From contig CAYJBG010000001.1 in the NCBI GenBank assembly GCA_964368085.1, positions 23,135 through 87,134 of the forward strand: 64,000 nucleotides of DNA. The letters are read 5' to 3'. Within the stretch, counting starts at the first letter, position 1. Each line of letters starts with the position of its first letter. Under the pieces are notes generated by a model that searched no databases, was not told where the DNA came from, and worked only from the letters and a program-made list of their open reading frames with translations. Positions 8,900-61,690 of the stretch are shown here, piece after piece. Origin of the DNA: an uncultured Acidiferrobacterales bacterium (GTDB lineage: Bacteria; Pseudomonadota; Gammaproteobacteria; Acidiferrobacterales; UBA6901). Made by a program: the position numbers and the translations under genes.

Positions 8900-8915
8900 T
8901 GGGAGAGTCAACAAA

Positions 8916-12200: not shown

Positions 12201-15200
12201 CTTGTTTTCGTTGACGTCGGTGTCGGCACTGACGAACTCATGAATCTGCTGCACGCCGAGTGCAGTCATCCCCACGACACGTTGATCAAGTATGAACAGG
12301 GCGTCAGACACATCTCGAGCTGGCAATTCCTGAAGGAGGACGATGCCGACACGTTTGATGGGAATAACCCCTACAAAGACCAAGGCGTCTATCTGATCAC
12401 CGGCGGGCTCGGCGGTCTGGGCGTTGTATTCGCAAAAGAAATCCTAGCCCGAACCTCGAACGCGAAAATCGTCCTGAGCGGGCGGGCGCCGCCGTCCGAA
12501 GTCAGAAAGTCCGCAAGCAAGAAGGCGGTTCTCGAATCGCTGCAAGCCGGTGGAGCGACGGTGGAGTATCGGCAGCTCGATCTGGACGATCCGAATAAGG
12601 TCAAAAACCTGATCGCGGCGATCCAGAAGAAGTACAAGCAGCTGAACGGCATCATCCACAGCGCGGGAATGACGTCGGACGGCTTTATCTTAAAAAAGAC
12701 CGCCGCCGACGTCGGTCGCGTTCTTGCCCCGAAAGTCCTAGGCACCTTCCATCTGGATCAGGCGACGCAGGACGTCGACCTCGACTTCCTGGTCTTGTTT
12801 TCGTCGCTGACTTCTGCCGTGGGTAACCTGGGGCAGGCGGATTACGCCGCAGCCAATGGGTTCATGGACGAGTTCGCGGCTTATCGCAACCGCTTGGCGA
12901 ATGCCGGAAAACGCCGGGGTTTCACGCTCTCCATCCGCTGGCCGCTGTGGCAGGACGGCGGTATGCAGCCAGATGCCGCCGGCAGGGAGATGCTGCAGGA
13001 GACAACCGGCATCTGTCCTATGCAGACGTCGGTTGGGATTCGAATGTTCTATCGGAGTTTGGCATCCCGGTACGACCAGACCCTGGTAATGGAAGGCGAT
13101 CTGCATCTGATGCAGCGGACCTTGGGCGTTGGGGCAGCGATCCATGCGGCTACGCCGGCAGTCGACGTCCCGAAGCTCGAATTCTCGTCCGAAACCGAAG
13201 GCGAAGATAGGGGTGGGCGTAGCCTCACGGAGCTGACCGAGGCCTACCTATGCAAGCAATTGTCGGCGTCACTGAAGTTGCCGGCACACAAAGTCGATCC
13301 GCGGGCTCCCCTTGAAGACTATGGGATTGACTCGATACTGGCTTTGGGTTTGACGAGCTCGCTGGAGAAGACCTTCGGGTCTCTTCCGAAGACTCTGTTC
13401 TTCGAGTATTTGACGGTCCGCGAGCTGGCCGGTTACTTCGTCAAAGCGCATGTCGCGCGGTTGTCGAAACTCTTTTCGGTTTCGGAGAGCGGCAGCGGCC
13501 AAGAATCGATGCAAGTATCGGCGCAAGCGCTGGCCCCGGCCCAGCAGGAATCCATTTCCAGCGTTCGCTTCGGCAGCCGGCGCTTCATTGACGAGGGCGG
13601 TCAACCGGTATCCCGTGAGGTAGCACCTTCCACGAACGATCCGATTGCGATCATCGGATTGAGCGGCCGTTATCCCGAAGCGCGTAATCTGAAAGATTTC
13701 TGGCGCAATCTGCGCGAAGGCAAAGATTGCATCGTCGAAGTGCCGAAAGGCCGTTGGGATTGGCGGGATTATTACAGTGAAGATCGCTCCGAAAAGGGCC
13801 GCCACTACAGCAAATGGGGCGGCTTCATCGAGGGCGTCGACGAGTTCGACGCGAGGTTCTTCAATATTTCCCCGGTCGAGGCCGAAACGATCGATCCGCA
13901 GGAACGCTTGTTCCTGCAGCATGCTTGGATGGCGATCGAGGATGCGGGCTATACCCGCGCCGCTTTGCAGATTCCGAAGGAGAGTGACCTTGCCGGGCAG
14001 GTGGGCGTGTATGCGGGTGTGATGTACGGCGAATATCAGCTCTTCGGCGCCGAAGTCAGCTTGCAGGGCAATCGCGTGGGCTTCGCCAGCAATCTCGCCA
14101 GCATCGCCAATCGCGTTTCCTATGTTATGAATCTGCACGGTCCCAGCATGGTTGTGGACACCATGTGCTCGTCGTCGCTGACGGCGATCCACTTGGCGTG
14201 TCAGGACCTCAAGCTCGGCCGCACGTCGCTAGGTATCGCAGGCGGCGTCAATGTCACAATCCATCCCAACAAGTACCTGATGCTCAGCGCCGGACAGTTC
14301 ATTTCCAGCGACGGTCACTGTCAGAGCTTCGGCGAGGGTGGCGAAGGCTATATCCCGGGCGAGGGCGTTGGCGTCGTCGTGCTGAAACGGCGATCCGAAG
14401 CGGAGCGCGACGGCAACCACATCTACGGCATCATCCGGGGCAGCGCGCTTAGCCACGGCGGCAAGACCAACGGCTACACGGTGCCAAATCCGCAGGCGCA
14501 GGCCCGCGCTATCCGTCTGGCGCTGGCGGAAGCCGGCATTGATCCCCGCCATATCAGCTATGTCGAAGCGCATGGCACGGGCACCAAACTGGGCGATCCG
14601 ATCGAGATCGCCGCGCTGAGCAAGGTTTTTCAAGAAAGCACGCAGGACACCGGATTCTGCCTGATCGGATCGGCGAAATCGAATATCGGCCACTGCGAGG
14701 CCGCGGCGGGCATTGCGGGACTCACCAAGGTGCTGTTGCAGTTGAAGCACAAGCACATCGTGCCTTCGCTGCATTCGGCCCGACTGAATCCACACATTGA
14801 TTTCGACAGCACCCCGTTCATCGTCAATCAGGCGCTCAGGCCATGGGAGCAGCCGGTCGTTGACGGAAAGAGGTTGCCGCGTATCGCTGGCATCTCGTCC
14901 TTCGGGGCGGGCGGTGCGAACGCGCACCTGATCGTCGAGGAATATCCGCAGCCCGTGGTGGCCGTGTGTCCGCAGGCCGATGTCGAGTACATCTTCCCGC
15001 TCTCGGCGAGAACTGCGGAGCAGCTGCGTGAGAAAGCGCGCGATCTGCTCGACTTTATCCGCGGCGAAGAGCCGCCGCTGCCTCTGGCGTCGATCGCCTA
15101 CACGCTCGAGGTCGGCCGCGAGGCGATGGACGAACGCTTGGCCGTCCTCGCGGATTCCGTCGCGACGCTCGCCGACCGACTTCAGGCCTATCTCGATGGC

Positions 15201-18200
15201 CACACCACCACCGACGACGTGTATCAAGGGCAGGTCAAGGCCAACAAAGACACGCTGTCGCTGCTCACAAAGGATCCCGATCTGCACGCGACGATCGGGA
15301 AGTGGATCGCTGACAGGAAGCTGTCGAAGTTGGCGGATCTCTGGGTCAAGGGCCTGGAGCTGGATTGGCGCAAGTTCCATGTTGCGACGCCCGCGCTGAT
15401 CAGCCTGCCAACGTATCCGTTCGCGAAGCAGCGGTTCTGGATCGACGCGGCGGTCGCCGCGCGCCGCGCGCCGCAGGCGCTGTCCGCGGCGCTTCACCCA
15501 CTGCTGCACAGTAACACCTCGGATTTCAGCCAGCAGAGCTACGCTGCGACGTTCGGCGCAGACGAGTTCTTCCTGACGGGTGCGCCCGGCCGGCGTTGTC
15601 TGACGGAAGCGGCATACCTGGAGATGGCGCGCGCTGCCATCGATGCGTCGATGCCCGCGCGGAAACAGTCGAGCATTCTCGAGCTGCGCGATGTCGCATG
15701 GGCGCAGCCGGGCGTCATAGTCGACAACAGGCCGGTCATGATCGCTCTGTTCGACAAGCTCGGTGAACAAGTGACGTTCGAGATATACAGCGCCGGCGGC
15801 GTGGATGGCGCCGGGGACATCGTGCACTGCCAAGGGCGTGCGGCCCGCAGCGATCAGCCGGCGGGCGCGAGGCTCGACATCGCCGCGATCGCGGTGCAGG
15901 AAGGGCGGGCGCTGATCGAATTGCGCCTGCCGACTGGGATGGAGAATGGCCAGGACGACTACGTCCTGCATCCCGCGCTGATGCAGAGCGCGCTGCAGGC
16001 GGCGGGCCTGACCAGCAGTTTGTCGCAACCCTTCGCCATGGCGTCGCTGCGCGTTGTCTTCCCCAGCACCAAGGCGAAGTTCGCATGGGTACGTCACTCG
16101 GCGTCTGCGGAGCGTGCGATCGACATCGATCTGTGCGACGAGCACGGCCATGTCTGTGTGCAGATGCGCGGCCTGCACTATGGGGTTTCCGCGACCCACG
16201 CTGCGGAAGCGCCTGCCGAACGTGCGTCGATCGAGGAGCCGAAATCGGTCGCGATCACCGATTCCGGTTCCGCTAAGCGCACCGCCCAGCCGACCCGCGT
16301 TCGCTTTGACACCTCGTCGTCGATCATCTCCGACGCGCCGATCCTGGAAAAGCTGAACCACAGTATCGCATTGAAGGCGCCCGGCGCATCGCTGGCGATC
16401 GTCGCCGAGCACGCCAAGGCGAGCCGGATCCGGTTCGCCGCCCCGCAGGCGGCGTTCTCCGACTGCTCGATTCTCGGAAAGCCGAACGGCAGCATCTTGC
16501 TGATGGCGCCCGACGCATCGCCCGAGGTCGAGGCCGAGCGCGGCGCCTCGGCCAAGCCGCGGGTCTTGCTTTCGCCGCCGATTGCCGGGATGGAGACGCC
16601 GGAACAATCGCGCGCCGCTTCCTCCGTCGGCCTGTTCGACTATGGCAACGGCGTGTTCGCGATCCGTATCGGCGCGGCCGTGAGCCGCAATACGCTGTCG
16701 GCCGACCTGATCGAGAATGTGCTGCGCGCGATGCGAACGGTCGAAGACGCCTCGTCGGCGAAGGTACTGACGATCGAAGGCAGCGACGAGCATTTCCTGG
16801 CCGGCGGACTCGAGCAGCATCGCGATGCCGTCGCCTCGAAGCTTTATAGCGCGATCGCGGAATTCCCGTATCCGGTGATCGCCGTGGTCCGCAACGATGC
16901 CGTCGGCGCCGGTTTTCTGGCCGCCGCGGTCAGCGATTTCATGGTGTGCAGTGACTCGGCACGCTATGCGTTTGCGCTTCCGGAAGAGGGGCTGTACCCA
17001 TCGGCCGCCGAGGACATCCTGATCGAGCGTTTCGGCCGTGCACACGCGACCGACTTCCTGTATATGACGACCGGCGCCACCGGCGCCGAACTCAAGGCGA
17101 AGGGCTGGACCTGCCCGATCATGCCGCGCGATCAGGTCGCGGCGTATGCCCAGGACCTGGCCGCGAATTTGGCGAAGAAATCCCAGATCTCGCTGCGGCT
17201 GCTAAAGCAGCACCTGGCGCGCCACATCGCCAGCGCGGTGAAGGCGTTGCCGACCGTCGATGGCGCACCGTTCGCGGCGGACGCGGCCAAGCCCGGCACG
17301 ATCAAAGCGCCTTCCGTGCGCCTCCAGTTGGATGCGCACGGCGAACGCGCGCTGGTCGTAAGGATCCGCGCGCAGGCGGACGGATCTAATGCGAAGGACC
17401 TGCTGGCCGACCTGGAAGCGGTATTCGCCAAGATCGACGACGCTTCGCCGTATCGCTGCGTGGTGCTCGCGAGCGAGCTCGTGCAGTTCCTGCCGGACGT
17501 TGCCGAGGACGCCCGCGCCGATGTCGCGCAGGGCTTCAGGAAGGCGTTGCTCGCGCTGGATCGCCCGATCGTTGCCGCCTTGAACGGTGACGCGACCGGC
17601 ATCGCCTGGTACGTCGTCCAGTTCTGCGACGCCTGCGTTTACAGCGAGCAGGGCCGCTATTCCGGCGCCGATATTCTGCGCGATCCCGCGTTGGCGGGCG
17701 ATGCGGCCGCGGTGTTTTCCCTGCGATTCGACGATGAGGCCGCGAAACAGATCCTGCTGGTGGGCGCCGAGGCTTCGGGCGTCGAATTGCGGGCCGACTA
17801 CGGTGCGCTCCATGTCCTGGGCGCCGATCAGGTGTTTGCGGGCGCGCTGGAACTGGCTGATGCTCTGGCCGCATTCCCGACGCCGGTGTTGTCCGCTTGG
17901 AAACAGCGCACCGCGTCGTTCCTCACCGCTGATACCGCGAGCCTCGGCGACGAGAGCATGCGGGCGGAGGAGGGAGCCGGTGACACCGCCGATGCGGCGG
18001 TCGGCGCGCCCGTTGCGGTCGCGCTCGAATCGACAGTGATCTCGGCGATCGCGCATCCGGAAGGCGTTCTGGAAGTGCATATGGCCGACCGTGACGCGAA
18101 GAACATGTTTTCCGACGCGTTCTCGCGCGGCATGCGCGAGGTGTTCGCGCATGTGGAGGAGAACCGTGCGTACAAGGTCGTGGTCATCACCGGATACGAC

Positions 18201-21200
18201 AACTATTTCTCATCCGGCGGGACACAGGACACGCTACTGGCGATCCACGAAGGCAAGGCCAGGTTCACCGACAACAAGGTCTTCCAATTGCCACTGACTT
18301 GCACGGTGCCGGTGATCGCTGCCATGCAGGGTCATGGCGTCGGCGCCGGTTGGGCCATGGGCATGTACGCGGACTTCGCGCTGTTCAGCGATGAAAGCCG
18401 CTACCTCAGCCCGTATATGGGCTATGGCTTCACGCCGGGCGCAGGCTCGACGCTGATGTTCCCGGAAAAGACCGGTTACGACCTCGCGCGCGAGACGCTG
18501 CTGACCGCGCAGGAGTACTCCGGTGGCGAGCTCAAGGATCGGGGTTTGCGCAATCCGGTGTTGCCGCGAGAGCGCGTGCTGCCTGCCGCGATGGCGCTGG
18601 CGCGACGGATCGCGCAGGGCTCCCGCGGCCGGCTCGTTGTCCTTAAGCGGCGTTGGGCACATGTCCTGCAAGCGTCCTTGCAGGACACGTTCGATCGCGA
18701 ACTGGCGATGCACGAGCGCACCTTCGTCGGGCAGGCCGACACACTGGCGCGGATCCAGGGCGGCTTCGGCGCCGAAGCCGCCGCACAAACTGTCGCGCCG
18801 CAGCAACCGGCCTCGCTGCCGGCCCGCGAGGAAGACCTCTGTGCCATCACCGCCAGCCTCAAGCAGATGCTGGCGCACGAACTGCGCATGCAGGAACACG
18901 AGATCGGCGAGGGCGAACAGTTCGTCGATCTCGGTCTGGATTCGATTACCGGCGTTACCTGGATCCGCAGGATCAACCAGAAGTACGGGACCTCGATCGA
19001 GGCGATCAAGGTCTACAGCTATCCGACGCTGACGCAGCTCAGCCGTTATGTCCGTGAGGAAGCTGAAAAGGCAGGGGCAGTGTTCATCGCGCCGCAGGTC
19101 CACACGCCTGTCGTTCCGATCGAAGTGCCTGCCGCGCGCCCGGTCGTGACCTCGCTGGCGTCCTGGCGCGATCGAAGCAGATCGAAGGCGGTCGCCGGGA
19201 CAGCCTCGGCCGCCGGACCCATCGCCGTGATCGGCATGGCCGGTCAGTTCGCGAAGGCCAGAGACCTCGAAGAGTTCTGGCAAAACATTGCCCAGGGCAA
19301 GGACTGCATCGAAGAGATCCCGAAACACCGTTGGGATATTGACCTCTACTATCAGGAGGGCGAAGTCGTGCCCGGCAAGACCTACAGCAAGTGGATGGGC
19401 TTTCTGGAAGAATATGACCTGTTCGACGCTGCGTTCTTCAATATCTCGCCGCGAGAGGCGAGAAGCATGGACCCGCAGCAACGCTTGTTCCTGCAGGCAT
19501 GCTGGCACAGCATCGAGCACGCGGGATACAACCCCAAGTCGCTTTCCGGCAGTAAATGCGGCGTGTTCGTCGGATGTTCCGCCGGCGACTACCACCAGCT
19601 TTCGAAGCGCGAACAGCTCAGCGGTCAAGGGTTCACCGGCGCGGCGCCGTCCATCCTGGCGGCGCGCATCTCTTATTTCCTGGACCTGCACGGTCCCAGC
19701 CTGTCCATCGACTCGGCGTGCTCTTCCTCGCTGGTCGTGATCGCCAGCGCCTGCGATAGCCTGGTCTCCGGCGCCAGCGACATTGCGCTGGCAGGCGGCG
19801 TCAACGTCATGTGCGGCCCAGCCATGCAGATCATGACCGCGCAAGTAGGCATGTTGTCACCGCAGGGCAGATGCTTCACCTTTGACGAAAGGGCGAACGG
19901 CATTGCCAACGGCGAGGGCGTCGGCGTCGTGATGCTGAAGAGACTGGCCGATGCGGAAAGGGATCGCGACTGGATTTACGGCGTCGTCGAAGGCTGGGGC
20001 GTCAACCAGGACGGCAAGACCAATGGCATCACCGCGCCGAACGCGGATTCGCAGACGCGCTTGCAGCAGGAGGTCTACGACAAGTTCCGGATCGATCCCG
20101 CCGGTATCCAGCTGATCGAGGCTCACGGCACGGGTACCGCGCTGGGCGATCCGATCGAAGTGGCGGGACTCAAGGCGTCCTTTGGAAAATACACCAGGAA
20201 CAAGGACTACTGCGCGCTCGGATCGGTCAAGAGCAATATCGGCCACTGCCTGACCGCCGCGGGCGTGTCAGGATTCCTCAAGATCCTGCTCGCGCTGAAG
20301 CACGAGCAGCTGCCGCCCACGATCCACTTCAGCAAGCTGAACAAGCATATTTCGCTGCAGGATTCGCCGTTCTATGTCAACGACCGGCTGCGCGAGTGGA
20401 AGCACAACGGGACCGAACCGCGTCGGGCCGCGATCAATGCGTTCGGCTTTAGCGGAACCAATGCGCACGCCGTGATCGCCGAGTACCGCTCGCAGCAGGA
20501 CATCGCAGCGCCTCGCGGGCCGGCGATTGTGCCGCTGTCGGCCAGGACGCCCGAGCAGCTCAAGCACAAGGGGCGTGATCTGCTCGCTTTCATTCGCGCA
20601 CAAAGCGCGTCGACGCTCTACCTCGACAGGATCGCCTACACCCTACAGGTCGGCCGCGAGGCGATGAACGAGCGCGCCGCTTTCATTGCGGGCACGGTTG
20701 CCGAGCTGGAGAGCAAGCTCGAGGCCTTCGTCGAAAGTGAAGATACCGATGGCGGCCCGCAGGCGGCGCACGTATATCGCGGCCAGGTGAGCAGCAACAA
20801 GGACACCTTGCTGGCACTCAGCTCGGATACGGATTTCCAGACGATGATCGCAAAATGGATCAGCAGGAAGGAATTGCCGAGACTGGCCGATCTGTGGGCG
20901 AAGGGCCTGGCCCTGGACTGGAACGCATTCCATGCGGCCGGCGACGCGCCGCGACGCATCGGTTTGCCCGTGTATCCGTTCGCCAAGGAGCGTTACTGGA
21001 TCGACGCGGCATCCGATGAACGCATCGTGCTGACCGGTCACGCGAACGCCGCCATCCATCCCTTGCTGCACGCCAACACGTCCGACCTGAGCCGGCAGAA
21101 GTACAGCACTACGCTCAATGGCGATGAGTTCTTCCTGATCGATTGCGATATTCCGGGAGGCGGTACGAAGCGGGTGTTGCCCGCGTCCGCCTGTTTGGAA

Positions 21201-24200
21201 ATGGCCCGGGCCGCCGTTGAGAACGCGGTCCCGGGTTTGCAGCAGTCCGAAGGCATAGAGCTGTGCGATGTCGAGTGGGGGCAGCCGGTCGAAGTCGGAC
21301 AAATCTCCATCGCGCTGTCGAGCCAACGCGACGGAAGTGTGGCGTTCGAGATCTTCAGCGGGGAACAGGAGGAAGTCGTTCATTGCCAAGGCGCTGTCGC
21401 GCTGCGCGGTGAGGTTGCGCCGAGTACGTTGGATCTTGCACTTCTACAAGGCCGGATCCGGAAAGGGGGCCAGACCCCGGAGAATCTGTACGATGCCTTC
21501 GCGAAGTCCGGTGTCAGGTACGGCGTCGTGCAGCGGGCTATTCACGAAATCCATACAGGCGACGACGAACTGCTCGTCCGCTTGGTGTCGCCTGCGGCGA
21601 TGGATGGCTCCCTCGGCGATTACCGGATTCATCCCAGCCTGATGGACAGCGCGATACAAGCCGGTATCGTCCTCCTCGGTGATCCCGCAGCGCGATCCGC
21701 CAAGCCGCTCTCTCCAGCGACGATCAATTCGGTGAACGTCGTATCGGCGTGTGCCGAAGAGGTGTTCGCCTGGGTCCGTCGTAGCGCAGCCGATCGTCGG
21801 AAGGCGGACATCGACCTTTGCGATCGGCACGGAAATGTATGCGTGCAGGTCAGGGGGCTGGCACTGCAGGCGCTGACGGTCGTAACGCCTCGCCCCGCGG
21901 ATACGGAAGTCGCGCCAGCGCGCGCGCAGCCGGCGCCACCCGTCTTCCAGCAGACGCAAGCCGCCGTTCGCCCGGCGACCACCGACGCCCGGCCGTCAAT
22001 CTCGCAAGAGCAGCTGCAGCAGCAGCTCAAGGCCAGTCTGGCCGAGGCGCTGTTCATGAAGCCCTTCGACGTGGACGTGAACAAATCCTTCACAGAACTC
22101 GGTCTGGATTCGATCATCGGCGTCGAGTGGGTCAAGACCATCAACAAGCAGTACGGCACCGGCATCTCAGCCACCCGGGTCTATGACTATCCCAGCGTGA
22201 AGGAGCTTGCCGCGTATCTGCAAGTCGAAATCGGCGGTGCAGTGTCTGGTTCCCTGGCCACCGTCGCCGTCAGCGCGGTCGCGCCGATCGATGCGCCGGA
22301 AGCGCGTCCCGCCGCGGAACCGGCGATCTCCCGCGAGGCCCTGCAGCTGCAGCTGAAGGCGAGTCTGGCCGATGCGCTGTTCATGAAACCTTCCGATGTC
22401 GACGTGAATAAGTCCTTCACCGAGCTGGGGCTCGATTCGATCATCGGCGTCGAGTGGGTCAAGACCCTCAACAAGCAGTACTGCACCAACATCTCCGCGA
22501 CCCGAGTCTACGACTATCCCAGCATCAAGGAGCTGGCGTCGTTCCTGATCGGAGAGATGGCCGCAATCAAGCTGCCGCAAAGCCCTGCATCGGCCCCGCT
22601 CGCAACCGTCATCGCGCAAAGCGATAAGCCGAGTCCGCGCGCGGAGACGGCGGTGCAGGGCGTTTCTCCGCCCCCGCGGGCGAAAGCGGCATTCGCCGGA
22701 AGAACCACCAGGTTCTCGAGACTCGAACGCATCCGCTTCGAGCCCAAGTACGCCAGGAACTTCAAAGATCTGTATTTCTATAGCCCTTATTGCCACGGCG
22801 ATTTCGAGGCAGAAGGCGAGTTTTCGGTTCAATGCGCTATCAACCCGGAAACCAACGTCAGTTTGAAGGAACACGTCGTCTTCGATGAGCATCTGTTGCC
22901 GACGGATGCGTACATCGAGCTGGTCTATTCCGCGTACAGAACCTATTTCTCCGCCGAAAACGTCTGCCTGAAGAATATCGCCATCGTCAATCCTATCTTG
23001 GGCGAGAAAGGCAGGGACAACCACATCAGGGTCGTGTTCCGTCGGGCCGGCGACGATCTCCAGTTCTTCGTCAAGTCCAGCCTTTCGCCCGATTTCCTGA
23101 ACGACAAGCTGCACATGCAGGGATTCGTCTCCATCGCGGATAAATCCCCTGCGACCAGGTTCGACGACGGATTCGCGATCGAAAATGAACTCGGCAGCGC
23201 GGAGATACCGACGAATACGGGGACGTACTATGCGCCTCTGCAGGCACTGCGATTCGGCGAGTCTTCGGCGGTCGGTCTTATCAGCGTACCGGGCCACGAT
23301 TTCAAATTCCTGGCGAGCCCGTTTGTGTTGTACGGAGGGCTGTGCACCGTCATCAACTACGGTGCCTATCTGGCAGGAAGGCATCATGGGATCAGCGACG
23401 ATCAATTCCTCCCGCATAGGATCGGCAATATCGCGGTCCTGGGTTCCCTGAACGAATCCGATTACCGCTGCTACGCCGAAGTCAGGAAGCTGGAAAGGGA
23501 TTCAGTGGAGTTCTATTTCGAAATCGTCGACCGGGCGGGCAAGCCAATGCTAGTTGTCGACTCGATCAGTTTGCGCCGGGTCGCGAGAAAGACCATCCAG
23601 CAGCAAGCGGCGGCCGCGAAGACGCTCCCGGTGATCGATAAGAAGGATCCTTCGATCGAGGCGGGCGCGGCGGCCGAAAAGATTGCCATCATCGGCATGT
23701 CCTGCCGTTATCCGATGAGCGAGAACGTCGACACGTTCTGGGAGAACCTCAAAGCGGGCAAGGATTGCGTGATCGAAGTACCCGCCGACCGCTGGGGTGC
23801 CTATTCCGACTGGTATCACCCTGATCCGCGCCACCCGCACACCTCGTATTCCAAGTGGAGCGGATTCCTGGACAGCATCGACACCTTCGACGCCCTGTTC
23901 TTCGGCATCTCGCCTGCGGAGGCGGAACTCATTGATCCGCAGCAGCGCATTTTTTTGGAGGAATGCTGGAAGACCATCGAGAGCGCTGGTTACGCGCCGA
24001 GCACGCTGTCTAACAGCCCTTGTGGTGTATATGTGGGCTGCTCTATGAGCGATTACGGCAGGGTGCTGGCCACCGATGGCCAGGACACCGCCGGTGCCGC
24101 CTTCATGGGTACGTCCAGCGCGATCCTGGCCGCGCGGATTTCCTATTACCTGAACCTCAAGGGCCCGGCCTTGGCGCTGGATACTGCGTGCTCGTCGTCC

Positions 24201-28150: not shown

Positions 28151-31100
28151 CACTCCCATGCGGACAAGCTGAACGACCTGCTCGCGACGGCGCCGGCCAA
28201 CATCGCGAAAGCCGCGCAGGCGCAGCCCGCCACCGTGGCGTCCCCGGCGCTACAGGGGCAGCGAGCCGGCCGTCGCAACCGCCAACGCTATCCGTCCGCG
28301 CCGGCGAGCGCGCAGGCGCCGCCGCCCGCCAACGAGCCCATCGCGATAGTCGGCTTGAGCGGCCGTTATCCCGAGTCGAGGGATATCGAGGAGTTCTGGC
28401 GCAATCTGCGGGATGGCAAGGACTGCATCGTTGAGGTCCCGAAGGAACGCTGGGATTGGCGGCAGTACTACAGCGAGGACCGGACGAAGGAGGGCGCTCA
28501 CTACAGCAAGTGGGGCGGGTTCATCGAGGGCGTGGACGAATTTGATCCGCGCTTCTTCAACATCGCGCCGCGCGAGGCGCGCACGATCGATCCGCAGGAA
28601 CGCCTGTTCCTGCAGTACGCCTGGATGGCGATCGAAGACGCCGGTTACACTCGCGCCAGTCTGCAGATTCCGAACGCTAGCGGCCAGGCCGGTCAGGTCG
28701 GCGTCTACGCTGGCGTGATGTACGGCGAATACAATCTTTCGGGCAGCCTGGCGAGCATCGCCAATCGTGTTTCGTACTTCCTGAATCTGCACGGCCCCAG
28801 CCTGACGCTGGACACCATGTGCTCGTCGTCGCTGACTGCGATCCATCTCGCGTGTCAGGACCTGCGGCTGGGACGAACCAGCCTGGCGCTCGCTGGCGGC
28901 GTGAACGTCAGTATTCATCCGAACAAGTACACGATGCTGAGCGGCGGCCAGTTCATCTCCAATGATGGCCACTGCCAGAGCTTCGGCGAGGGCGGCGGCG
29001 GCTACATCCCGGGAGAGGGCGTGGGCGTGGCCGTCCTCAAACGGTTGTCCGACGCCGAGCGCGACGGCAACCATATCTACGGCGTGATCCGCGGCAGCGC
29101 GCTCAATCACGGCGGCAAGACCAACGGTTACACGGTGCCGAATCCACAGGCGCAGGCCGAGGTCATCCGCCGCGCGCTGGTCGAGGCCAGGATCGACCCG
29201 CGGCACGTCAGTTACATTGAGGCCCATGGTACGGGCACTAAGCTGGGTGATCCGATCGAGATCGCGGCTCTGACCAAGGCGTTCTACGAAGGCGCTCAGT
29301 TATCCGCGCGCGAGGTCGAGTTCTGCCTGATCGGTTCGGCCAAATCCAATATCGGCCATTGCGAATCGGCGGCGGGCATCGCCGGAGTGACCAAGGTGCT
29401 GCTACAGATGAAGCACGCCTCCATCGTACCGTCGCTGCATTCCAAGAAGCTCAACCCGCATATCGATTTTAAGACCACGCCCTTCGTCGTCAATCAGACA
29501 CTGCAAAGCTGGGAGCAGCCGGAGCTGGATGGCCAGCTCAAGCCCCGCATCGCCGGCATCTCATCGTTCGGCGCGGGCGGCTCGAACGCGCACCTGATCA
29601 TCGAGGAGTACCGCACGCCCGAGCAGCCGATCGCGACCATGCACGTACAACTCGTCGTGCCGCTGTCAGCGAGAACCGCGGAGCAACTGGAGCAACGTGT
29701 CCGCGATCTGTTGGCGTTCATCGAGCGCAGCGAGCGCCCCATCGATCTGCGCGCCATGGCCTACACCCTGCAGGTGGGACGCGAAGCGATGGAGGAGCGC
29801 GCGGCCTTCCTGGCGATCTCCATCGAGGATCTGACCGCGAAACTGAAGTCGTTCCTGAAGGGTGACGACGCGGGCGGCGATGTCCATCGCGCCCAGGTAA
29901 AGCAGCACCGAGAAGCGCTCGCGCTGCTCGCCGCGGATGCAGATTTCCAGAACTCCATCGAGCAATGGATCGAAGACAGGAAGCTGCCGAAGCTGGTGGA
30001 GCTGTGGGTCAAGGGAATGGAGCTGGACTGGTCCAGGTTGATCGACGCCGGTAGCGTGCCGCGGCTGATGAGTCTGCCGACGTATCCCTTCGCCAGGGAG
30101 CGCTACTGGGTCGAGCCGCCGGCCATGGCTGCCGTGGCGACGGTGCAGCAGACGACGGTTCTGCATCCTCTGGTGCACGCGAACACGTCGAATCTGCTGC
30201 AGCAAAGTTACGCGTCCCGCTTCGCGGGAAGCGAATCTTTCCTCGACGAAGGTCCGATGGCGGGGCAGAAAGCGCTGCCGCCGCTGCTCGTGCTGGAGAT
30301 GATCCGTGCCGCCGTCGAGCTGGCCTCGCCGCAGCGGTCGGAATCCGGCCAGTGGGAACTGCGCGATACGGTGTGGGGTGAGCCGCTGCTCATTTCAAGC
30401 GAGCGCACCGTCGGTATCGCGCTGTTCCCGCGCGCCAACGATACCGTCGATGTTGAGATCTACAGCGGGACCGGAACCGTCGATGGCGCGGACGACTGCG
30501 TCCACTGCCAGAGCCATGCGGTGTTCAGCCGCCTTCCCGCGCCGGCGCGCGTGGATATCGCGCGGCTCAAGGACGCGATGCGGGCGCAGCCGGATGCATT
30601 GCATGCCGTTTACCTGGACGACGGTCAGGCTTTGGCGCAGGTGCGCCTGCCGACGCGATCCGACAAGGATCGCGCCGAGTATACCCTGCATCCGGATCTG
30701 CTGAAGCAGTTTGCACAACTGCTGGATCGCGTTGCCGGCGCGTCGTTGTCACCCACGTCTCTCGAGTGCCTACGGTTCGTATTCGCATGCCCGGAGAACA
30801 CGGTCGTGTGGCTGCGCTATTCGTCGTCCGCAGCCGTCGACATCGACGTCTGCGACGAGCAGGGCAACGTCTGCGTGCAGATGAGCGGCCTGTGCTGCGA
30901 GTCCGTCGCGCAGGCCGCGATGATCGTGGCCGCCGACGTTCGCGCAACGGTTGCACCGGTGCTGGTCGACGCAGCGGTAATGGTCGAGCCCGCGCCGGCG
31001 ACCACACCGACACAGCCTCTGGCGCAAGCGGCCGGACCCAGGGAAATCGTTCTGACGCCGGTGACGACGCACGAGCCTGAGACCCAGTTCGAGCCGGTGA

Positions 31101-34100
31101 GCAAGAAGCCGACCGGTGTCCGCTTGCTAGCGAGCGCCGAAGTGCCGTCAAGTCCAGTCGCGGCAAAAGCGACCGTAGCGCTTTCCGTTCTCTCGGCGAA
31201 GCCCTGGTCGTCCACTTTCACGAAGGAGGCGTCCCGGCCGGTCCGCTTGTTCGAGTTGGGTGCTGGCGTGTTCTCCATTGAAATGGAAACTACCTCCTTC
31301 GAGGCGGTGATCGAACCGTTATTGCAGGGCTTGAACCGGGCCCGCAATGAAACGTCGCTCAAAGTCCTGCTGCTGATCGGCCGCCAAGCGAACTCCTGGT
31401 GCGGCGACCGGAACGCCAGCAATGCGGCGACAGAGCGCCGTTTGTTCAGTGTCGTCGCGGTTTTCCCTTGTCCGGTCATCGCCGTCGTGCAAGGCGATGC
31501 CGTGGGTGCCGGATTGTTGTTGGCTTCGGTCTGCGACCTCATGGTGTGCAGCGAGGACGGGCAGTATGGCTACACCGACATCGCATCGGGGATTTTCCCG
31601 AGCGCGGGCGAAGAGCGTTTTTTCCGTGAACGGCTGGGCGATGCCGTCGCCGACGACTTGCTCTATCGGTCCACGCGATGCAGCGGTCGGCGGCTTAACG
31701 CCAAGGGCTGGGCCTGCCGCGTCGTGCCGTCGGCACAGGTGGAGGCCGACGCCCAGCGCCTCGCCGTCGATCTGTCGCGCAAATCGCAGCTCGCGCTGGG
31801 TCTGCTCAAGACCCATCTGGGCCGCCACCTCTCCCCGCTGGTCGACCATCTGGCCGCGGTCGATGTCTTGCATGCCGCGCCCCGCGCCGCGGAACACGCG
31901 GTGGATAGCGCACTGGTGCTAAAGCTCGGCGCCGACCGGGAGGCCTACGACCTGCAGGCGCTGATCACCGATCTGAAGCTCGCCTTCGATCACGTCGGCG
32001 AGGCATTGGAATACAAGTCCGTCGTGCTCACCAGCGTGTTGGGCGGGTTCCTGCCGCAGATAGACGAGGCCAGTGACGCCGCGACCGTGGCCGAGTTGAA
32101 GCATCTTGTGCGCTGTTGCCCTGTGCCGCTGATCGCGGCATTCGAATCGAACGCCGATGGCCTGGCCTGGCTGTTTGGCTTGTTCTGCGACACCGTGGTT
32201 TACAGCAACGACGGCCGCTATTCCGCGTCCGCCCTGTGGGCGGCGCCGTCGTGCGCGCGCGAGGCCGCGGCCCTGTGCACGCAGCGCCTCGGCGCGTCGT
32301 TCGGGCAAGAAGTCTGCCTGACCGAAGGCAGCTACTCGGGTGCGGATCTGCGGGCACGTATGGGCGCGCTCGTCGCCGTCGACAGCGACGAAGTGATGCC
32401 CCAGGCGCTGCGCCTGGCCGCATTCTGGGACGCGTGGCCGCGCGCCACCGTCGTCGCCTGGAAACTGACACAAACCGCGCATCTGCAACGTCTGCTGGAG
32501 GCGTTGCCTGACGCGCAGTTATTGGAGGATGGCTCTGCCGTCGCGACGGATCCGACCACCGTCTCGGCACCCACGGCCATCGCGCTTCGCTCCACCGTTA
32601 TCAGTGCCACCGCACATCCCGAAGGCGTGGTGGTAGTCAGCATGCAGGAGCGGGACGCAAAGAATATGTTCTCCGAGGCACTGGTCAGCGGGCTGAAGGA
32701 GGCCTTCGCGCACATCGCACAGACCCCCGCCTACAAGGCGGTGGTGTTGACCGGATACGACAGCTACTTCGCGACCGGCGGCACGATGGAGACGCTGTTG
32801 GCGATCCAGCAAGGCCAGGCGCAGTTCACCGACGAAAAGGTGTTCCAGCTGCCGATGGACTGCCTGCTGCCGGTCGTCGCCGCGATCCAGGGCCACGGCA
32901 TCGGCGGCGGCTGGTCTTTCGGCATGTTCGCCGATCTCGTTGTGCTCAGCGAAGAGAGCCGCTATCTCAGCCCGTACATGGGATACGGCTTCACGCCGGG
33001 CGCGGGCTCCACGCTGATGTTCCCGGAAAAGATCGGGTACGACCTGGCGCGGGAAACGCTGCTGACCGCGCAGGAGATTTCGGGTCGCGAACTGAAGGAA
33101 CGCGGTGTGCCGCTGCCGGTGTTGCCGCGGCGCGACGTGGTTGCGGCCGCGATCGGCCTGGCCACGCGCATGGCGCGGCAGCCGCGCGCGCGACTGATCG
33201 GGCTCAAGCGGCTGTGGACGCATGCGCTGCGCCAGTCGCGCGAGGACAGCTATCGGCGCGAAGTCGAGATGCACGAGCGGACCTTCGTCAGGAACGCCGA
33301 AACACTGGGGACGATCCAGGCCAAGTTCTCTGCGGAAACCGCACAGACTCAGGTCACGGTCGCGAAGGTCGGGCAGCCGGCGTCGTCCATCGTCGGAAAA
33401 CTCAAAGCGATGCTGGCGCAGGAGCTGTTCCTGAAGCCCGAGGAGATCGACGAGGACACTCAGTTCATCGATCTCGGACTGGATTCCATCACTGGCGTGA
33501 CCTGGATCCGCAAGATCAATGCGCACTATGGCACGGACATCGAAGCGACCAAGGTCTACAGCCATCCGACACTGAAGCAACTCAGCCAGCTCGTCGCGAG
33601 CGAGGCCGTGATCGAAAACGCGCCAGCGCCCGCCGCCGCGATTGCGCAGCAGGCCGGAACGAAGGGTCAGGCCGCTTCGGCGCAGGTAGCTGGCGTGTCG
33701 TCGTCGACGGAGCGCGAGAGCCTTGACAGCGTCATCACCAAACTCAAGGCGATGCTGGCGAAGGAACTGCTGCTGCGGCCCGATGAGATCGAGGAAACCG
33801 TGCAGTTCATCGACATGGGGCTGGATTCGATCACCGGCGTCACCTGGATGCGCAAGATCAACGAGCACTACCGAACGGACATTGAGGCCACCAAGGTCTA
33901 TAGCCATCCGACGCTGCAGGAGATCGGCCGTCTGGTGCAGCAGGAAGCCGAAAAAGCCGGAACGCTGGCCAAGCCTGTGCCCGCACAGGCGGCTCCGCCC
34001 ACCGGCGTGCGGCAACCGGTCCCGTCCGCGCGTCGCGCACTCGCGTCGTGGCGCCGACAGGCGCGCGCCAATGCGCGCATCGCGCCGCAGGCAGAAGCGG

Positions 34101-37100
34101 CCGGCGGGGCGCGGCCGATCGCCGTCATCGGCATCGCCGGCCAGTTCCCGCAGGCGAAGAATCTTGACGAGTTCTGGGCGAATCTGGCCGAAGGCAGGAA
34201 CTGTATTGACGAAGTGTCTGATGCGCGTTGGAGCCTCGGCGACTGTTTCCAGGCCGGCACACCCACGCCGGGAAAGACCAACAGCAAATGGTTCGGCGCC
34301 CTGGACGAGTACGATCTGTTCGATCCGCTATTCTTTAATATATCGCCGACCGAAGCCGAATGCATGGACCCGCAGCAGCGCATGTTCCTGCAGACATGTT
34401 GGCACAGCATCGAGAACGCCGGCTACAGTCCGCAGTCCTTGTCCGGCAGCCAATGCGGTGTATTCGTCGGTTGCGGACCCAGCGACTATCACCAGATATC
34501 GCGCGAGCAGCAACTGAGTGCGCAGGGTTTCACTGGCGCGGCGAGTTCGATCCTGGCAGCACGGATCTCGTATTTCCTGAACCTGCGCGGTCCCTGCATT
34601 GCGATCGAAACCGCGTGTTCGTCGTCCCTGGTCGCGATCGCCAATGCCTGTGACAGCCTGAACACCGGCAACAGCGATCTGGCCCTGGCTGGGGGTGTCT
34701 ACGTCATGGCGGGTCCCGCCATGCACATCATGACCTCGCAGGCTGGTATGCTGTCGACCGATGGCCGCTGCTACACCTTCGACCAGCGCGCGAATGGCTT
34801 CGTACCGGGCGAGGGCGTCGGCGTGCTGATGCTGAAGCGCCTGGCGGATGCCGAGCGCGACCAAGATCGCATCCTAGGGGTGATCGAAGGCTGGGGCGTG
34901 AACCAGGACGGCAAGACCAACGGCATTACCGCACCCAACGAAGAATCGCAGACTCGGTTGTTGCAATCGGTCTACAAGAAATTCGGCATCGATCCCGCCG
35001 GCATCCAACTCATCGAAGCGCACGGCACGGGCACCAAGCTGGGCGACCCGATCGAGGTCGCCGGGCTGAAGGCCGCGTTCAAACCCTTTACCGACAAGTC
35101 CGGCTACTGCGCCCTCGGCTCGGTGAAGAGCAATATCGGCCACTGCCTCACCGCTGCGGGCGCCGCCGGGTTCATCAAGCTGATCCTGGCCTTGAAGCAT
35201 CGCTCGCTGCCGCCGACGATCAACTACGAACGTCGCAACGAACATATCCAGCTCGACGGCAGTCCGTTCTACATCAACGACACGCTCAAGCCCTGGAACG
35301 TCGCGCAGGGCGAAAAGCGCCGCGCCGCGATCAGCTCGTTCGGTTTCTCCGGTACCAATGCCCACCTCGCGATCGCCGAGCATGTGCCGAGCGTGCAGGT
35401 CAGGCCGGACGTCTCCATCGTCGCGCAAGACGGCAAGATCATCGTGCCCTTGTCGGCGAGAACCGAATCGCAGCTAAGGCAGAAGGCGCAAGATCTGTTG
35501 GCGCATATCCGCAGGAATCCGTCTCTCGATCTGGCGGAGCTCGCCTATACCCTCCAAGTCGGCCGCGATGCGATGGGCGAACGCCTGGGCTTCCTGGTCG
35601 GCTCGCTGGATGCGCTGGCCGCCAGGCTCGAGGCGTACGTGACGGGCGAGGGCGATGTTGAAGGCGCTTATCAGGGCCAGGTCAAGCGCAACAAGGAAGA
35701 GTTGAAGCTCATCACTCAGGACGACGAGATGAGAGCGACGATTGTCGGCAAATGGCTGAGCGAGTACAAACTATCCAAGCTGCTGGACCTGTGGGTCAAG
35801 GGCCTGAATCTGGACTGGCACCTGCTATACGGCGAGGCGAAGCCGCAGCGCATCGAATTGCCGAACTATCCGTTCGCGAAGGACCGCTACTGGCTCGATG
35901 CCGGCACTACGCTGCCGCTTTTGGCCCCGCTTTCCTCGCACAACTCGGCACGCGACATTCTGCATCCCTTGCTGCACAAGAACACCTCGTTGCTGAGCCA
36001 GCAACGTTACCGTTCGAATTTCAGTGGCAAGGAGTTCTTCTTCGATATGCAGATCGATGGCGTAAAAGTCCTGTCCCCGCTGTCCTTACTGGAGATGGCA
36101 CACGCGGCCGTTGCGCAGGCGACGCTCGATCTCGCTGAGCCCGCAATGATCGAACTTAGCCGAATAAGCTGGAGGAAGCCGCTGTTCGTCGCTGGCGATA
36201 CGGAGCTAGAGGTTGTCATCGATTTGTTCGCGAACGAAGATGAAAGCGTCTCCTTCGAGATCTACACGACGGCAACGAACAGCGCGGGCGAATCGGAACT
36301 CACCGTTCATGTCCAGGGTGTTGCCTGCTTCATCGAGCGGATTTCGTCTGGGCGCGTCGACATCGCTGGCCTACGCAAGCAATCGTTCGCCGAAAGATTC
36401 GATACACCGGCCTTTTATGCGGGCTTGAAACGTGCCGGAGTGGATTACGGAAATGCGCTGCAAGGCTTGCAGGCCATCCATCTCGGCCACAATCAATTGT
36501 TGGCGCATATCGGTCTGCCTGGCGCCCTCGACAGCTATGGGAAGGACTATGCGCTTCATCCGAGCTTGCTCGAAGGCGCAGTGCAGGCCTGCATGGTCTT
36601 TGTCAGCGATGCGAACGAGCTGTCGGCTCAAGCCTTGTCGCCCGTTTCGATCGATTCCTTGACGGTCGTAGCGGATTGCGAAAGAGCTTGTGAAGCTGAA
36701 ATGTTCGCCTGGATTCGGTATTCGGATCGTGTCGATGACGATGTGAGCGATGGCGACGTGCATTCCCGGAAACTGGATGTCGACATCGTGGATGCGCAAG
36801 GCGATTGTCGCGTCGCGATCCGCGGGCTCGTTCTGGGCTTGGCGACCGTGAGTGAAGTCGCCGCCGCGCTGCCGGAAACGGCGATGACGACCCCTCTGTG
36901 GGATGTGATCAAAGATTTCGACGACGCAGCCGATCCGGTTGCCGGAAAACGGATTCTGGTGATCGGTGCGAACGACGAGCAGAGATCGGCCCTTGAGCGG
37001 CACTATCGGGAATCGACGACCGCTTTCGTGAACATATTCGAGGCCGACACCGTCGCCGATATCAGCGGAAAGCTGGAAGGCGTCGAGTTCGACAAGCTGG

Positions 37101-59983: not shown

Positions 59984-60020
59984 TTCATCAGATGTTCATA
60001 TCTGTTAGGAGAAAATTACT

Positions 60021-60260
60021 ATGAGTAAAGAGAAAATCTTTGAGATCATCGTTCGCCATACCCGTGAGGTGGTTCCGAGATTGGAAGATCATCAGTTTCA
60101 GCCGAGCGATTCACTGAGGGCGCTGGGCGCCAATTCGGTCGACCGTGCCGACATCATCATGATGACTTTGGAGTCCTTGGCTCTGAACATTCCTTTGATT
60201 GAAATAGCCAAAGCCGACAACATCGGGGAATTGGCCGGTATTTTCCATGAGAAGTCCTAG
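60021..60260 (+). CDS. Discrete donor ACP of the HMGS cassette (AcpK/MacpC type)
   Basis: 79-aa acidic protein with LRALGANSVDRADIIMM (Ser attachment site). ggag lies upstream. It sits between ECH2 and the decarboxylating KS. Confidence 0.8.
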   Translation: MSKEKIFEIIVRHTREVVPRLEDHQFQPSDSLRALGANSVDRADIIMMTLESLALNIPLIEIAKADNIGELAGIFHEKS

Positions 60261-61674: not shown

Positions 61675-61690
61675 CAATGGAGGTACACTC

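What the first reader, a model, noticed from the sequence alone, without database searches (positions are those of the whole stretch)
13636..35383. About 7-kb module-block duplication inside the assembly line (KS-DH*-ECHx3-ACPn-KS)
Seen: the block 13636-20486 (KS2, DH*2, ECH triad, ACP, KS3) is paralogous, domain for domain, to 28334-35383 (KS5, DH*5, ECH triad, ACP-ACP, KS6). Long stretches of protein are identical, for example GVMYGEY, VDTMCSSSLTAIHLACQDL.LGRTSL, RYLSPYMGYGFTPGAGSTLMFPEK.GYDLARETLLTAQE and GWGVNQDGKTNGITAPN. The copies differ in ACP number and in the linker between DH* and the ECH triad: a 43-aa tandem repeat occurs only in copy 1. Inference: the cluster grew by duplicating a whole branching block together with its downstream gatekeeper KS. 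This is a natural example of block-wise module evolution.
Basis: seen in the sequence. Interest (0 to 1): 0.55.

Follow-up and report, generated by a model that had tools for sequence, protein, structure and literature searches.

The report
Two old copies of branching unit
The two ~6-7 kb stretches inside this giant polyketide synthase really are relatives with the same domain order, but they are ancient copies of a building block shared by many bacteria, not a duplication that happened in this gene cluster, which is ordinary for this enzyme class.

Summary
The window holds a trans-AT polyketide synthase: three ORFs, 10 KS domains and no in-line AT. The two blocks exist at the stated coordinates with the same domain order (KS, His-less DH*, three ECH domains, ACP(s), KS).

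Similarity is patchy. Amino-acid identity is 82% for the upstream KS, 46% for DH* (background level), 43/32/65% for ECHa/b/c, 68% for ACP and 71% for the downstream KS.

- A third KS (KS8), outside any branching block, is 78-81% identical to both upstream KSs.
- Four-fold degenerate sites are saturated (54-55%, like unrelated KS pairs). The longest shared DNA word is 28 nt.
- A syntenic orthologous cluster (L015) holds both blocks. Every domain there pairs with its positional orthologue (77-96%), not its paralogue (34-79%).
- Among about 90 homologous blocks from four phyla, the in-window paralogue ranks 2nd to 62nd.
- An exclusive block1+block2 clade appears in 0-2% of bootstraps.

The true unit is DH*-ECH3-ACPn-KS, which ends at an LPxYPFx5W motif. 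It follows a second recurrent unit, DH-KR-ACP-KS.

Verdict: real but ancient paralogy of a widespread beta-branching exchange unit. This is ordinary for trans-AT PKSs. The only young duplications are the tandem ACPs.

The parts
13629..15440 (+). KS2 and its flanking subdomain, ending in LPTYPFAKQRFW (15405-15440). This is the last part of exchange unit 1 (DH-KR-ACP-KS, 10935-15440).
   Evidence: Located. C-H-H catalytic residues are intact. Identity is 82% to KS5 and 78% to KS8.
15441..20999 (+). Exchange unit 2 (block 1): DH* 15483-16172, degenerate 42-aa linker repeat 16284-16538, ECHa 16629-17258, ECHb 17334-17987, ECHc 18045-18749, ACP2 18858-19061, KS3 19206-20351, LPVYPFAKERYW 20964-20999.
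   Evidence: The whole unit is 50% identical to unit 5, against a background of 30-40%.
22014..22547 (+). Tandem ACP3a/ACP3b, 87% aa and 84% nt identical. Both carry the DSxxxxxW beta-branching flag. This is a genuinely young duplication.
28331..30109 (+). KS5 and its flanking subdomain, ending in LPTYPFARERYW (30074-30109). This is the last part of exchange unit 4 (DH | KR-ACP-KS, split over ORFs A and B).
30110..35893 (+). Exchange unit 5 (block 2): DH* 30158-30919, ECHa 31247-31861, ECHb 31904-32521, ECHc 32606-33307, ACP5a 33398-33604, ACP5b 33740-33946, KS6 34115-35248, LPNYPFAKDRYW 35858-35893.
   Evidence: The blastn similarity to block 1 stops at 35906/21011, just past the motif.
44897..46060 (+). 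KS8, a third member of the KS2/KS5 clade. It follows DH-KR-ACP but is followed by DH-KR, not by a branching unit.
   Evidence: Identity is 78% to KS2 and 81% to KS5. At the nucleotide level it is 75.9% identical to KS2, the highest for any KS pair.
57202..61515 (+). Trans-acting beta-branching cassette: HMGS 57202-58461, ECH1 58449-59234, ECH2 59231-59983, donor ACP 60021-60260, and decarboxylating KS 60247-61515 (active-site Cys replaced, GGASASG).
61589..62842 (+). Free-standing acyltransferase (trans-AT).
   Evidence: No Acyl_transf_1 hit was found in ORFs A, B or C.

Best explanation
The two stretches are old paralogous copies of one widely distributed trans-AT PKS exchange unit: His-less DH*, truncated ECHa, truncated ECHb, ECH2-type ECHc, one or more Trp-flagged ACPs, a KS and its flanking subdomain. 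Each copy ends at an LPxYPFx5W motif.

Each copy sits behind a copy of a second recurrent unit, DH-KR-ACP-KS. That unit occurs three to four times in this assembly line (ending in KS2, KS5 and KS8, and more distantly KS9).

How it works (inferred from the families involved):
- KS2 or KS5 extends an enoyl intermediate to a beta-keto thioester on the flagged ACP(s).
- The trans-acting HMGS, with its donor ACP and decarboxylating KS, adds acetate.
- ECH1 dehydrates the adduct.
- The in-line ECHc decarboxylates it to give the beta-branch. By analogy with modules that have a truncated ECH in front of ECH2, the branch is probably an exomethylene.
- KS3 or KS6, which belong to a KS clade found after all such triads, takes the branched chain on.

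The high KS identities reflect substrate-linked KS clades under strong purifying selection, not recency. The split between the two copies predates the spread of this cluster across several bacterial orders. Whether the second copy arose by a very old in-line duplication or by block exchange between assembly lines is unresolved; the evidence leans towards exchange.
For: - Domain order and boundaries.
- Exchange-unit identity matrix: EU2/EU5 50%, EU1/EU4/EU7 53-55%, all other pairs 30-48%.
- The blastn similarity ends at 21011/35906, next to the LPxYPFx5W motifs at 20964-20999 and 35858-35893.
- Orthologous clusters with copy-specific orthologues occur in Telluria, Massilia, Rhizobacter, Thermomonas, Lysobacter and Desulfobulbus genomes and in metagenome loci L011 and L015. 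L015 holds both copies.
- Four-fold sites are saturated between the copies (54-55%, against 36-58% for unrelated KS pairs and 35% expected from composition). The orthologue comparison gives 70-89%.
- 76 of 156 representative proteins carry the a-b-c triad, nearly always as (KR-ACP-)KS-DH-a-b-c-ACPn-KS. They come from Bacteroidota, Pseudomonadota, Acidobacteriota and Desulfobacterota.
- Rank of the in-window paralogue among 61-93 blocks: upstream KS 9/2, DH* 11/4, ECHa 57/30, ECHb 62/58, ECHc 13/8, ACP 21/14, downstream KS 31/50.
- In the concatenated tree the block-1 group has 100% support and the block-2 group 99-100%. An exclusive union of the two appears in 0-2% of bootstraps.
- Post-triad KSs form one clade (100%). 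KS6 groups with the Kordia and Aliikangiella KSs rather than with KS3 (78%).
- L012 carries a block-2-type unit behind an unrelated KS.
- ECHc matches PksI (E 3e-64) and CurF ECH2 (E 6e-52) and keeps the MHERTF His.
- ACP2, ACP5a and ACP5b carry DSxxxxxW.
- The HMGS cassette is present.
- Published framework: KS phylogeny follows substrate and module blocks are swapped (PMC7930024). The LPTYPFx5W motif bounds exchange units (PMC11260071). A truncated ECH in front of ECH2, with tandem flagged ACPs, marks exomethylene modules (bioRxiv 10.1101/2022.05.23.493085 and 10.1101/2020.09.18.303172).
Against: - The trees are neighbour-joining on simple corrected distances, and the deep nodes have 1-44% support. 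'Not sister' therefore means 'no support for sister', not a demonstrated separate origin.
- The block-1 lineage sits on a longer branch for ECHa and ECHb. Faster divergence after an in-line duplication could mimic separate origins.
- Within the window, the pair is clearly more similar than any other pair of units of different type.
- The chemistry (an exomethylene, the role of ECHc as opposed to the free ECH2) is inferred by analogy. The product is unknown.
Confidence: 0.78

Rival explanations
1. At some point in its history, this cluster lineage duplicated one contiguous piece, KS-DH*-ECH3-ACP-KS (or the larger DH-KR-ACP-KS-DH*-ECH3-ACP-KS), in line. The copies then diverged, faster in DH*, ECHa and ECHb.
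For: - The order of seven domains is the same, and it extends upstream into KR-ACP.
- EU1+EU2 and EU4+EU5 form the same two-unit series.
- The upstream KS paralogue ranks 2nd of 61 for KS5.
- Deep nodes are unresolved, so an ancient duplication is not excluded.
Against: - An exclusive block1+block2 clade appears in 0-2% of bootstraps.
- The paralogue ranks 30th to 62nd for ECHa, ECHb and the downstream KS.
- KS6 groups with Kordia and Aliikangiella KSs rather than with KS3 (78%). The ECHc of one Aliikangiella block groups with block-1 ECHc to the exclusion of block 2 (86%).
- KS8 is as close to the upstream KSs as they are to each other.
- The block-2 type occurs in another assembly line behind a different KS (L012).
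- Both copies were already fully diverged in all orthologous clusters.
Confidence: 0.18
2. Concerted evolution. Gene conversion between modules of the same cluster keeps the KS, ECHc and ACP segments similar, while the rest drifts.
For: The identity profile is patchy, with peaks at the KS, ECHc and ACP segments. Gene conversion is discussed for cis-AT PKSs (PMC7930024).
Against: - Four-fold sites in the most conserved segments are no more alike than in unrelated KS pairs.
- The longest identical DNA word is 28 nt.
- The KS2 and KS5 orthogroups are each monophyletic across genera (100% and 94%). Within-genome and between-genome paralogue identities are about equal (76-79%).
Confidence: 0.03
3. 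A recent segmental duplication, or an assembly artefact that repeats one module block.
For: None beyond the shared domain order.
Against: Nucleotide identity is only 69-72%. Linkers and ACP numbers differ. Both copies are independently present in other assemblies.
Confidence: 0.01

Closest known systems
Exomethylene-type beta-branching modules of trans-AT PKSs (pederin/onnamide, sesbanimide, oocydin, lasonolide): tandem ECH domains plus tandem flagged ACPs, served by a trans HMGS cassette
   Same: - An in-line ECH2-type domain is preceded by truncated, probably inactive ECH.
- The ACPs carry DSxxxxxW.
- HMGS, ECH1, a donor ACP and a decarboxylating KS are encoded separately.
- A degenerate region or DH lies between the KS and the ECHs.

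   Different: - Here three crotonase-fold domains are recognisable, not two. The middle one is so diverged that Pfam misses it in copy 1.
- A free-standing ECH2 is also present.
- The product and the branch type are unknown.
trans-AT PKS exchange units and conserved module blocks (Helfrich et al. 2021, PMC7930024; Mabesoone et al. 2024, PMC11260071)
   Same: - The unit runs from behind one LPxYPFx5W motif to the next.
- The KS travels with the modifying domains upstream of it.
- The same unit appears in different assembly lines and phyla.

   Different: Those papers stress exchange between different clusters. Here the same unit type is used twice (and DH-KR-ACP-KS three to four times) within one assembly line. 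The route, duplication or exchange, is unresolved.
Module duplication followed by divergence in cis-AT PKSs
   Same: Homologous multi-domain units are repeated within one synthase.
   Different: In cis-AT systems the KSs of one cluster are usually monophyletic (PMC7930024). Here they are not: KS3 and KS6, and KS2, KS5 and KS8, group with KSs of other phyla.
CurF ECH2 and PksI (solved ECH2 decarboxylases)
   Same: ECHc is about 40-44% identical to them and keeps the C-terminal His. The AF2 model superposes on single chains with target-normalised TM 0.80-0.89.
   Different: Those proteins are separate chains that form homotrimers (my own knowledge of the crotonase family). Here ECHc is fused behind two truncated crotonase domains in one chain.

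Membership tests
trans-AT polyketide synthase | Multimodular KS-containing megasynthase without in-line AT domains; AT supplied by a separate gene | tested here: met
   No Acyl_transf_1 hit in ORFs A, B or C. A free-standing AT lies at 61589-62842.
HMGS (HCS) beta-branching system | Cassette of HMGS, ECH1, ECH2, donor ACP and a Cys-less KS | tested here: met
   All five genes lie at 57202-61515. The KS has GGASASG in place of the active-site Cys.
HMGS (HCS) beta-branching system | Acceptor ACPs carry the DSxxxxxW flag | tested here: met
   ACP2, ACP5a and ACP5b (and ACP3a/3b) have GLDSIxGVxW. The other six ACPs lack the Trp. The motif is as described in bioRxiv 10.1101/2020.09.18.303172.
Exomethylene-type module (truncated ECH + ECH2 + tandem ACP) | In-line ECH2-type domain with catalytic His, preceded by truncated ECH | tested here: met
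   ECHc matches PksI and CurF and keeps MHERTF. ECHa and ECHb end before that helix and give only weak PDB hits.
Exomethylene-type module (truncated ECH + ECH2 + tandem ACP) | The product carries a beta,gamma-unsaturated exomethylene at that position | not testable with these tools
   The product is unknown. The lasonolide preprint reports the same architecture giving an endo-methyl branch.
trans-AT exchange unit | Bounded by LPTYPFx5W-type motifs at the end of the KS flanking subdomain | tested here: met
   Motifs lie at 15405-15440, 20964-20999, 30074-30109 and 35858-35893. Similarity between the copies ends at 21011/35906.
trans-AT exchange unit | The KS co-evolves with the upstream modifying domains and the unit recurs in other assembly lines | tested here: met
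   All post-triad KSs form one clade (100%). L012, Kordia, Aliikangiella and 76 representative proteins carry the unit.
Recent or cluster-specific segmental duplication | The copies are each other's nearest relatives | tested here: not met
   The paralogue ranks 2nd to 62nd among 61-93 blocks. An exclusive clade appears in 0-2% of bootstraps.
Recent or cluster-specific segmental duplication | Synonymous sites are not saturated between the copies | tested here: not met
   Four-fold-site identity is 54-55%, equal to unrelated KS pairs. Orthologues give 70-89%.
Recent or cluster-specific segmental duplication | Close relatives of the cluster lack one copy | tested here: not met
   L015 and L011 hold the second copy with positional orthology. 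L001, L003 and L004 continue into a KS5 orthologue.
cis-AT-style evolution by module duplication | The KS domains of one cluster are monophyletic | tested here: not met
   Window KSs fall into several clades shared with other phyla.

The most novel reading that the evidence does not exclude
The conserved ECHa-ECHb-ECHc triad may be a single-chain pseudo-trimer of the crotonase fold in which only ECHc is catalytic. That would fit a normally trimeric enzyme into a dimeric assembly line.

The triad marks a large, uncharacterised family of trans-AT PKSs spread over at least four phyla. In this window the family is linked to an MMPL / LolA-like / DUF1302-type export set, which suggests a beta-branched lipophilic product sent to the outer membrane.

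Support so far:
- The three position-specific clades are conserved in about 90 blocks.
- ECHa and ECHb are truncated.
- AF2 gives pTM 0.80 for the 707-aa triad from a six-sequence alignment.

The geometry could not be inspected. The papers found describe only tandem or paired in-line ECH domains. Searches for three in-line ECH domains or a crotonase pseudo-trimer found no such description.
Probability: 0.35. Interest if true: 0.55.

Novelty: new member of a known kind. Interest (0 to 1): 0.25.

Why it matters
For the finding as stated, it matters little. Repeated use of conserved exchange units, KS clades that follow substrate, and motif-bounded unit borders are the established picture of trans-AT PKS evolution.

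The case is a clean worked example of three points:
- High within-cluster KS identity (82%) is not evidence of recent duplication.
- The natural unit starts after the KS, not at it.
- ACP copy number is the only part that changes quickly.

What could matter more is the by-product: a three-crotonase unit conserved across phyla in an orphan PKS family.

Tried and rejected
- Tandem Repeats Finder on 9-56 kb found nothing. The linker repeat only appears at the protein level.
- The search for homologous proteins with triad 2 gave only four short hits. The representative search and the contig scans were needed instead.
- A strict HxxxGxxxxP regular expression missed active DHs, so the alignment was read directly.
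- The first concatenated tree run timed out and was redone with my own neighbour-joining code.
- Literature searches for the product or for this cluster family found nothing. Terms tried were Kordia, Massilia, Lysobacter, Fulvivirga, 'three ECH' and DUF1302/DUF1329. One search was wasted on word-start matches.
- Foldseek against the PDB can only match single crotonase chains, so it does not test the pseudo-trimer idea. The model coordinates were not readable in the sandbox.
- GC3 was tried as a sign of separate origin. Units 2, 4b and 5 are at 81% and the others at 72-78%, but the orthologue L015 is uniform at about 81%. The mosaic therefore says more about this genome's recent history than about the origin of the blocks.
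- Gene conversion, assembly artefact and recent duplication were considered and rejected.

Full report
WHAT IS THERE

The window is a trans-AT polyketide synthase cluster. Three large ORFs (9219-26462, 26459-41941, 42002-55876) hold ten KS domains, all with intact Cys-His-His. None holds an acyltransferase domain. A free-standing AT lies at 61589-62842.

Upstream genes:
- an MMPL transporter and a LolA-like protein;
- a GMC oxidoreductase;
- an acyl-AMP ligase and an SDR;
- a small starter ACP at about 8916-9182.

Downstream genes:
- a PEMT-like methyltransferase and an MBL-fold protein;
- a complete beta-branching cassette: HMGS 57202-58461, ECH1 58449-59234, ECH2 59231-59983, donor ACP 60021-60260 and a Cys-less KS 60247-61515.

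CHECK OF THE OBSERVATION

Domain mapping by blastp confirms the two blocks at the stated coordinates and in the same order.
- Block 1: KS2, DH*, ECHa, ECHb, ECHc, ACP, KS3.
- Block 2: KS5, DH*, ECHa, ECHb, ECHc, ACP, ACP, KS6.

Other points that hold:
- Both DH* domains lack the catalytic His.
- The quoted peptides are present in both copies.
- The linker repeat in copy 1 is real but degenerate: 19 of 42 residues, score 76 against a shuffle maximum of 45. Tandem Repeats Finder does not see it. It is also present in an orthologue.

The similarity is uneven. Identities between the two blocks:

| Domain | Identity | Comment |
|---|---|---|
| KS2 / KS5 | 82% | KS8 is equally close |
| DH* / DH* | 46% | background level; DH2* vs DH4 is 53% |
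| ECHa | 43% | |
| ECHb | 32% | |
| ECHc | 65% | |
| ACP | 68% | |
| KS3 / KS6 | 71% | other KS pairs are 44-55% |

KS8 in ORF C belongs to no branching block, yet it is 78-81% identical to KS2 and KS5. At the nucleotide level it is the closest match of KS2, at 75.9%. So the upstream KS is not a specific part of a duplicated pair.

Nucleotide identity between the blocks is 69-72%. The longest shared exact word is 28 nt, the same as in a control against the KS8 region.

THE NATURAL UNITS

LPxYPFx5W motifs follow every KS. Published work proposes that these motifs bound the evolutionarily autonomous 'exchange units' of trans-AT PKSs (PMC11260071).

The nucleotide similarity between the blocks ends at 21011/35906. 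That is within about a dozen bases of the motifs at 20964-20999 and 35858-35893.

Cutting the synthase at these motifs gives nine units:
- Units 2 and 5 (DH*-ECH3-ACPn-KS) are 50% identical.
- Units 1, 4 and 7 (DH-KR-ACP-KS) are 53-55% identical to each other and 46-48% to unit 8.
- All remaining pairs (units of different type) are 30-42%.

AGE OF THE SPLIT

At four-fold degenerate sites under identical residues, identity is as follows:

| Comparison | Four-fold-site identity |
|---|---|
| KS2 / KS5 | 54% |
| KS3 / KS6 | 55% |
| ECHc / ECHc | 56% |
| Unrelated KS pairs | 36-58% |
| Expected from base composition | 35% |

The same measure between the window and its syntenic orthologue L015 is 70-89% across both blocks. 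The measure therefore has resolving power, and the copies are far older than that split. The sliding profile shows no tract of raised synonymous identity, which argues against gene conversion.

RELATIVES ELSEWHERE

A scan of one genome per species with triad 1 found two kinds of relatives:
- Module-for-module orthologous clusters in Telluria, Massilia atriviolacea, Rhizobacter, Thermomonas, Lysobacter and Desulfobulbus.
- Different assembly lines in Aliikangiella and three Kordia genomes. These carry several KS-DH*-ECH3-ACP2-KS blocks in series.

A metagenome scan with triad 2 found L011, an orthologue, and L012. L012 carries a block-2-type unit in a different assembly line (DH* 52%, ECHa 60%, ECHb 51%, ECHc 75%, KS 75%). 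It sits behind a KS only 51% identical to KS5.

L015 is a 96-kb metagenome contig with full synteny. It holds both blocks. Every domain there is 77-96% identical to its positional orthologue in the window and only 34-79% to the paralogue.

An exhaustive profile search found the whole triad in one stretch in dozens of representative giant proteins. Of the 156 proteins held after that search and the later look-ups, 76 carry a-b-c, almost always in the context (KR-ACP-)KS-DH-a-b-c-ACPn-KS. Named sources include Thermoanaerobaculia, Steroidobacter, Fulvivirga and Sporocytophaga.

PHYLOGENY

All trees are neighbour-joining with bootstraps. No maximum-likelihood software was available.

ECH tree:
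- The ECH domains fall into three position-specific clades: a 97%, b 86%, and c together with the free ECH2 99%.
- ECHa is nearer to the ECH2 type (100%).
- The triad therefore arose once, and all blocks share ancestry.

KS tree:
- All post-triad KSs form one clade (100%).
- Within it, KS6 groups with the Kordia and Aliikangiella KSs rather than with the KS3 orthogroup (78%).
- The pre-triad KSs, KS8 and the Kordia and Aliikangiella KSs form a star-like clade.

Ranks among 61-93 blocks. The first number is the rank of the copy-2 domain among homologues of the copy-1 domain; the second is the reverse.

| Domain | Rank of in-window paralogue |
|---|---|
| Upstream KS | 9 / 2 |
| DH* | 11 / 4 |
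| ECHa | 57 / 30 |
| ECHb | 62 / 58 |
| ECHc | 13 / 8 |
| ACP | 21 / 14 |
| Downstream KS | 31 / 50 |

Concatenated tree of a+b+c+downstream KS, 982 columns and 79 blocks:
- The block-1 orthogroup (9 members) has 100% support.
- The block-2 group (window, L011, L012, Steroidobacter) has 99-100% support.
- The two form an exclusive clade in 0-2% of replicates.
- Deeper nodes are unresolved.

Other assembly lines with two triads show sibling ranks of 5-11 of 78, so deep divergence between in-line copies is general in this family.

MECHANISM

Shown by sequence:
- ECHc is an ECH2-type decarboxylase domain. It matches PksI at 3e-64 and CurF at 6e-52, and the His of MHERTF is kept in both copies.
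- ECHa is a weak ECH2 relative and ECHb a very diverged crotonase. Both end before the His-bearing helix.
- ACP2, ACP5a and ACP5b carry the DSxxxxxW flag.

Inferred from the families:
- KS2 or KS5 makes a beta-keto intermediate on these ACPs.
- The trans-acting HMGS, ECH1 and in-line ECHc convert it to a beta-branch.
- By analogy with modules that have a truncated ECH before ECH2 and tandem flagged ACPs, the branch is probably an exomethylene. The lasonolide preprint reports an endo-methyl branch from the same layout, so this is not certain.
- KS3 or KS6 accepts the branched chain.

COMPARISON WITH WHAT IS KNOWN

In trans-AT PKSs, KS phylogeny tracks the incoming substrate and conserved module blocks are shared between clusters. 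Evolution by module duplication with monophyletic KSs is typical of cis-AT PKSs (PMC7930024).

The present case fits the trans-AT picture. It is an uncharacterised member of a known kind. The only young duplications in the region are the tandem ACPs:
- ACP3a/3b are 84% identical at the nucleotide level.
- ACP5a/5b are 81% identical.
- The ACP count after the triad varies from 1 to 6 among the 79 blocks that have a downstream KS, and it differs between close orthologues.

VERDICT

Interest is low for the finding as stated.

The most novel reading left open concerns the three-crotonase unit itself. AF2 gives pTM 0.80, and Foldseek finds only single-chain crotonases in the PDB.

Noticed in passing
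window 9219-35900 compared with L015: Against the syntenic orthologue L015, four-fold-site identity is about 50-68% from 9219 to about 13.7 kb (KS1-DH1-KR1-ACP1). The upstream genes are only 34-79% identical at the protein level. From about 13755 (start of KS2) to at least 35.9 kb, most 150-codon windows rise to 70-89% (a few dip to 59-69%).
   Followed up: partly
window 16629-18800 and 31247-33360: The ECH triad is one conserved a-b-c unit in about 90 blocks from four phyla. Only ECHc keeps the ECH2 His; ECHa and ECHb are truncated. AF2 gives pTM 0.80 for the 707-aa triad. The idea is a single-chain pseudo-trimer of the crotonase fold. The geometry was not checked.
   Followed up: partly
window 21000-25454 (unit 3; ACP3a/3b at 22014-22229 and 22341-22547): There appears to be a third beta-branching site. 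The tandem ACPs after KS3 carry the DSxxxxxW flag, but this unit has no in-line ECH. It has a His-less DH before the ACPs and a weak DH-like stretch after them (ORF A residues 4549-4691).
   Followed up: no
window 9219-55873: GC3 is a mosaic. Units 2, 4b and 5 are at about 81%, unit 3 at 78%, unit 1 at 74%, units 6-9 at 72-76% and the tailoring genes at 56-72%. The orthologue L015 is uniform at about 81% across units 1-5. This is unexplained. It may be linked to the recombination breakpoint above.
   Followed up: partly
window 54983-57075: ORF C ends in a DH domain, with no ACP or thioesterase in the window. A PEMT-like methyltransferase (55877-56356) and an MBL-fold protein (56221-57075) follow. 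How the chain is released is unclear.
   Followed up: no
window 10-5494; L015 1-5913: An MMPL transporter, a LolA/DUF1329-like protein, a DUF1302 protein (annotated in L015) and a GMC oxidoreductase precede the PKS in both clusters. A similar DUF1302/DUF1329/efflux set has been proposed to transport hydrophobic substrates in Pseudomonas putida (PMC10866462). This suggests export of a lipophilic product.
   Followed up: partly
window 8874-9182: A small stand-alone ACP (…ELGFSSLMVAAL…) lies between the SDR and ORF A, behind the acyl-AMP ligase. It is probably the starter-loading ACP. An 89-aa PP-binding gene occupies the same position in L015.
   Followed up: no
L006 (Aliikangiella), L007-L009 (Kordia): These other assembly lines use the same DH*-ECH3-ACP2-KS unit two or more times in series. 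In Kordia the two sampled copies are each other's sisters for ECHb and ECHc (100% in the small tree). In-line duplication of this unit therefore does seem to occur in some lineages.
   Followed up: partly
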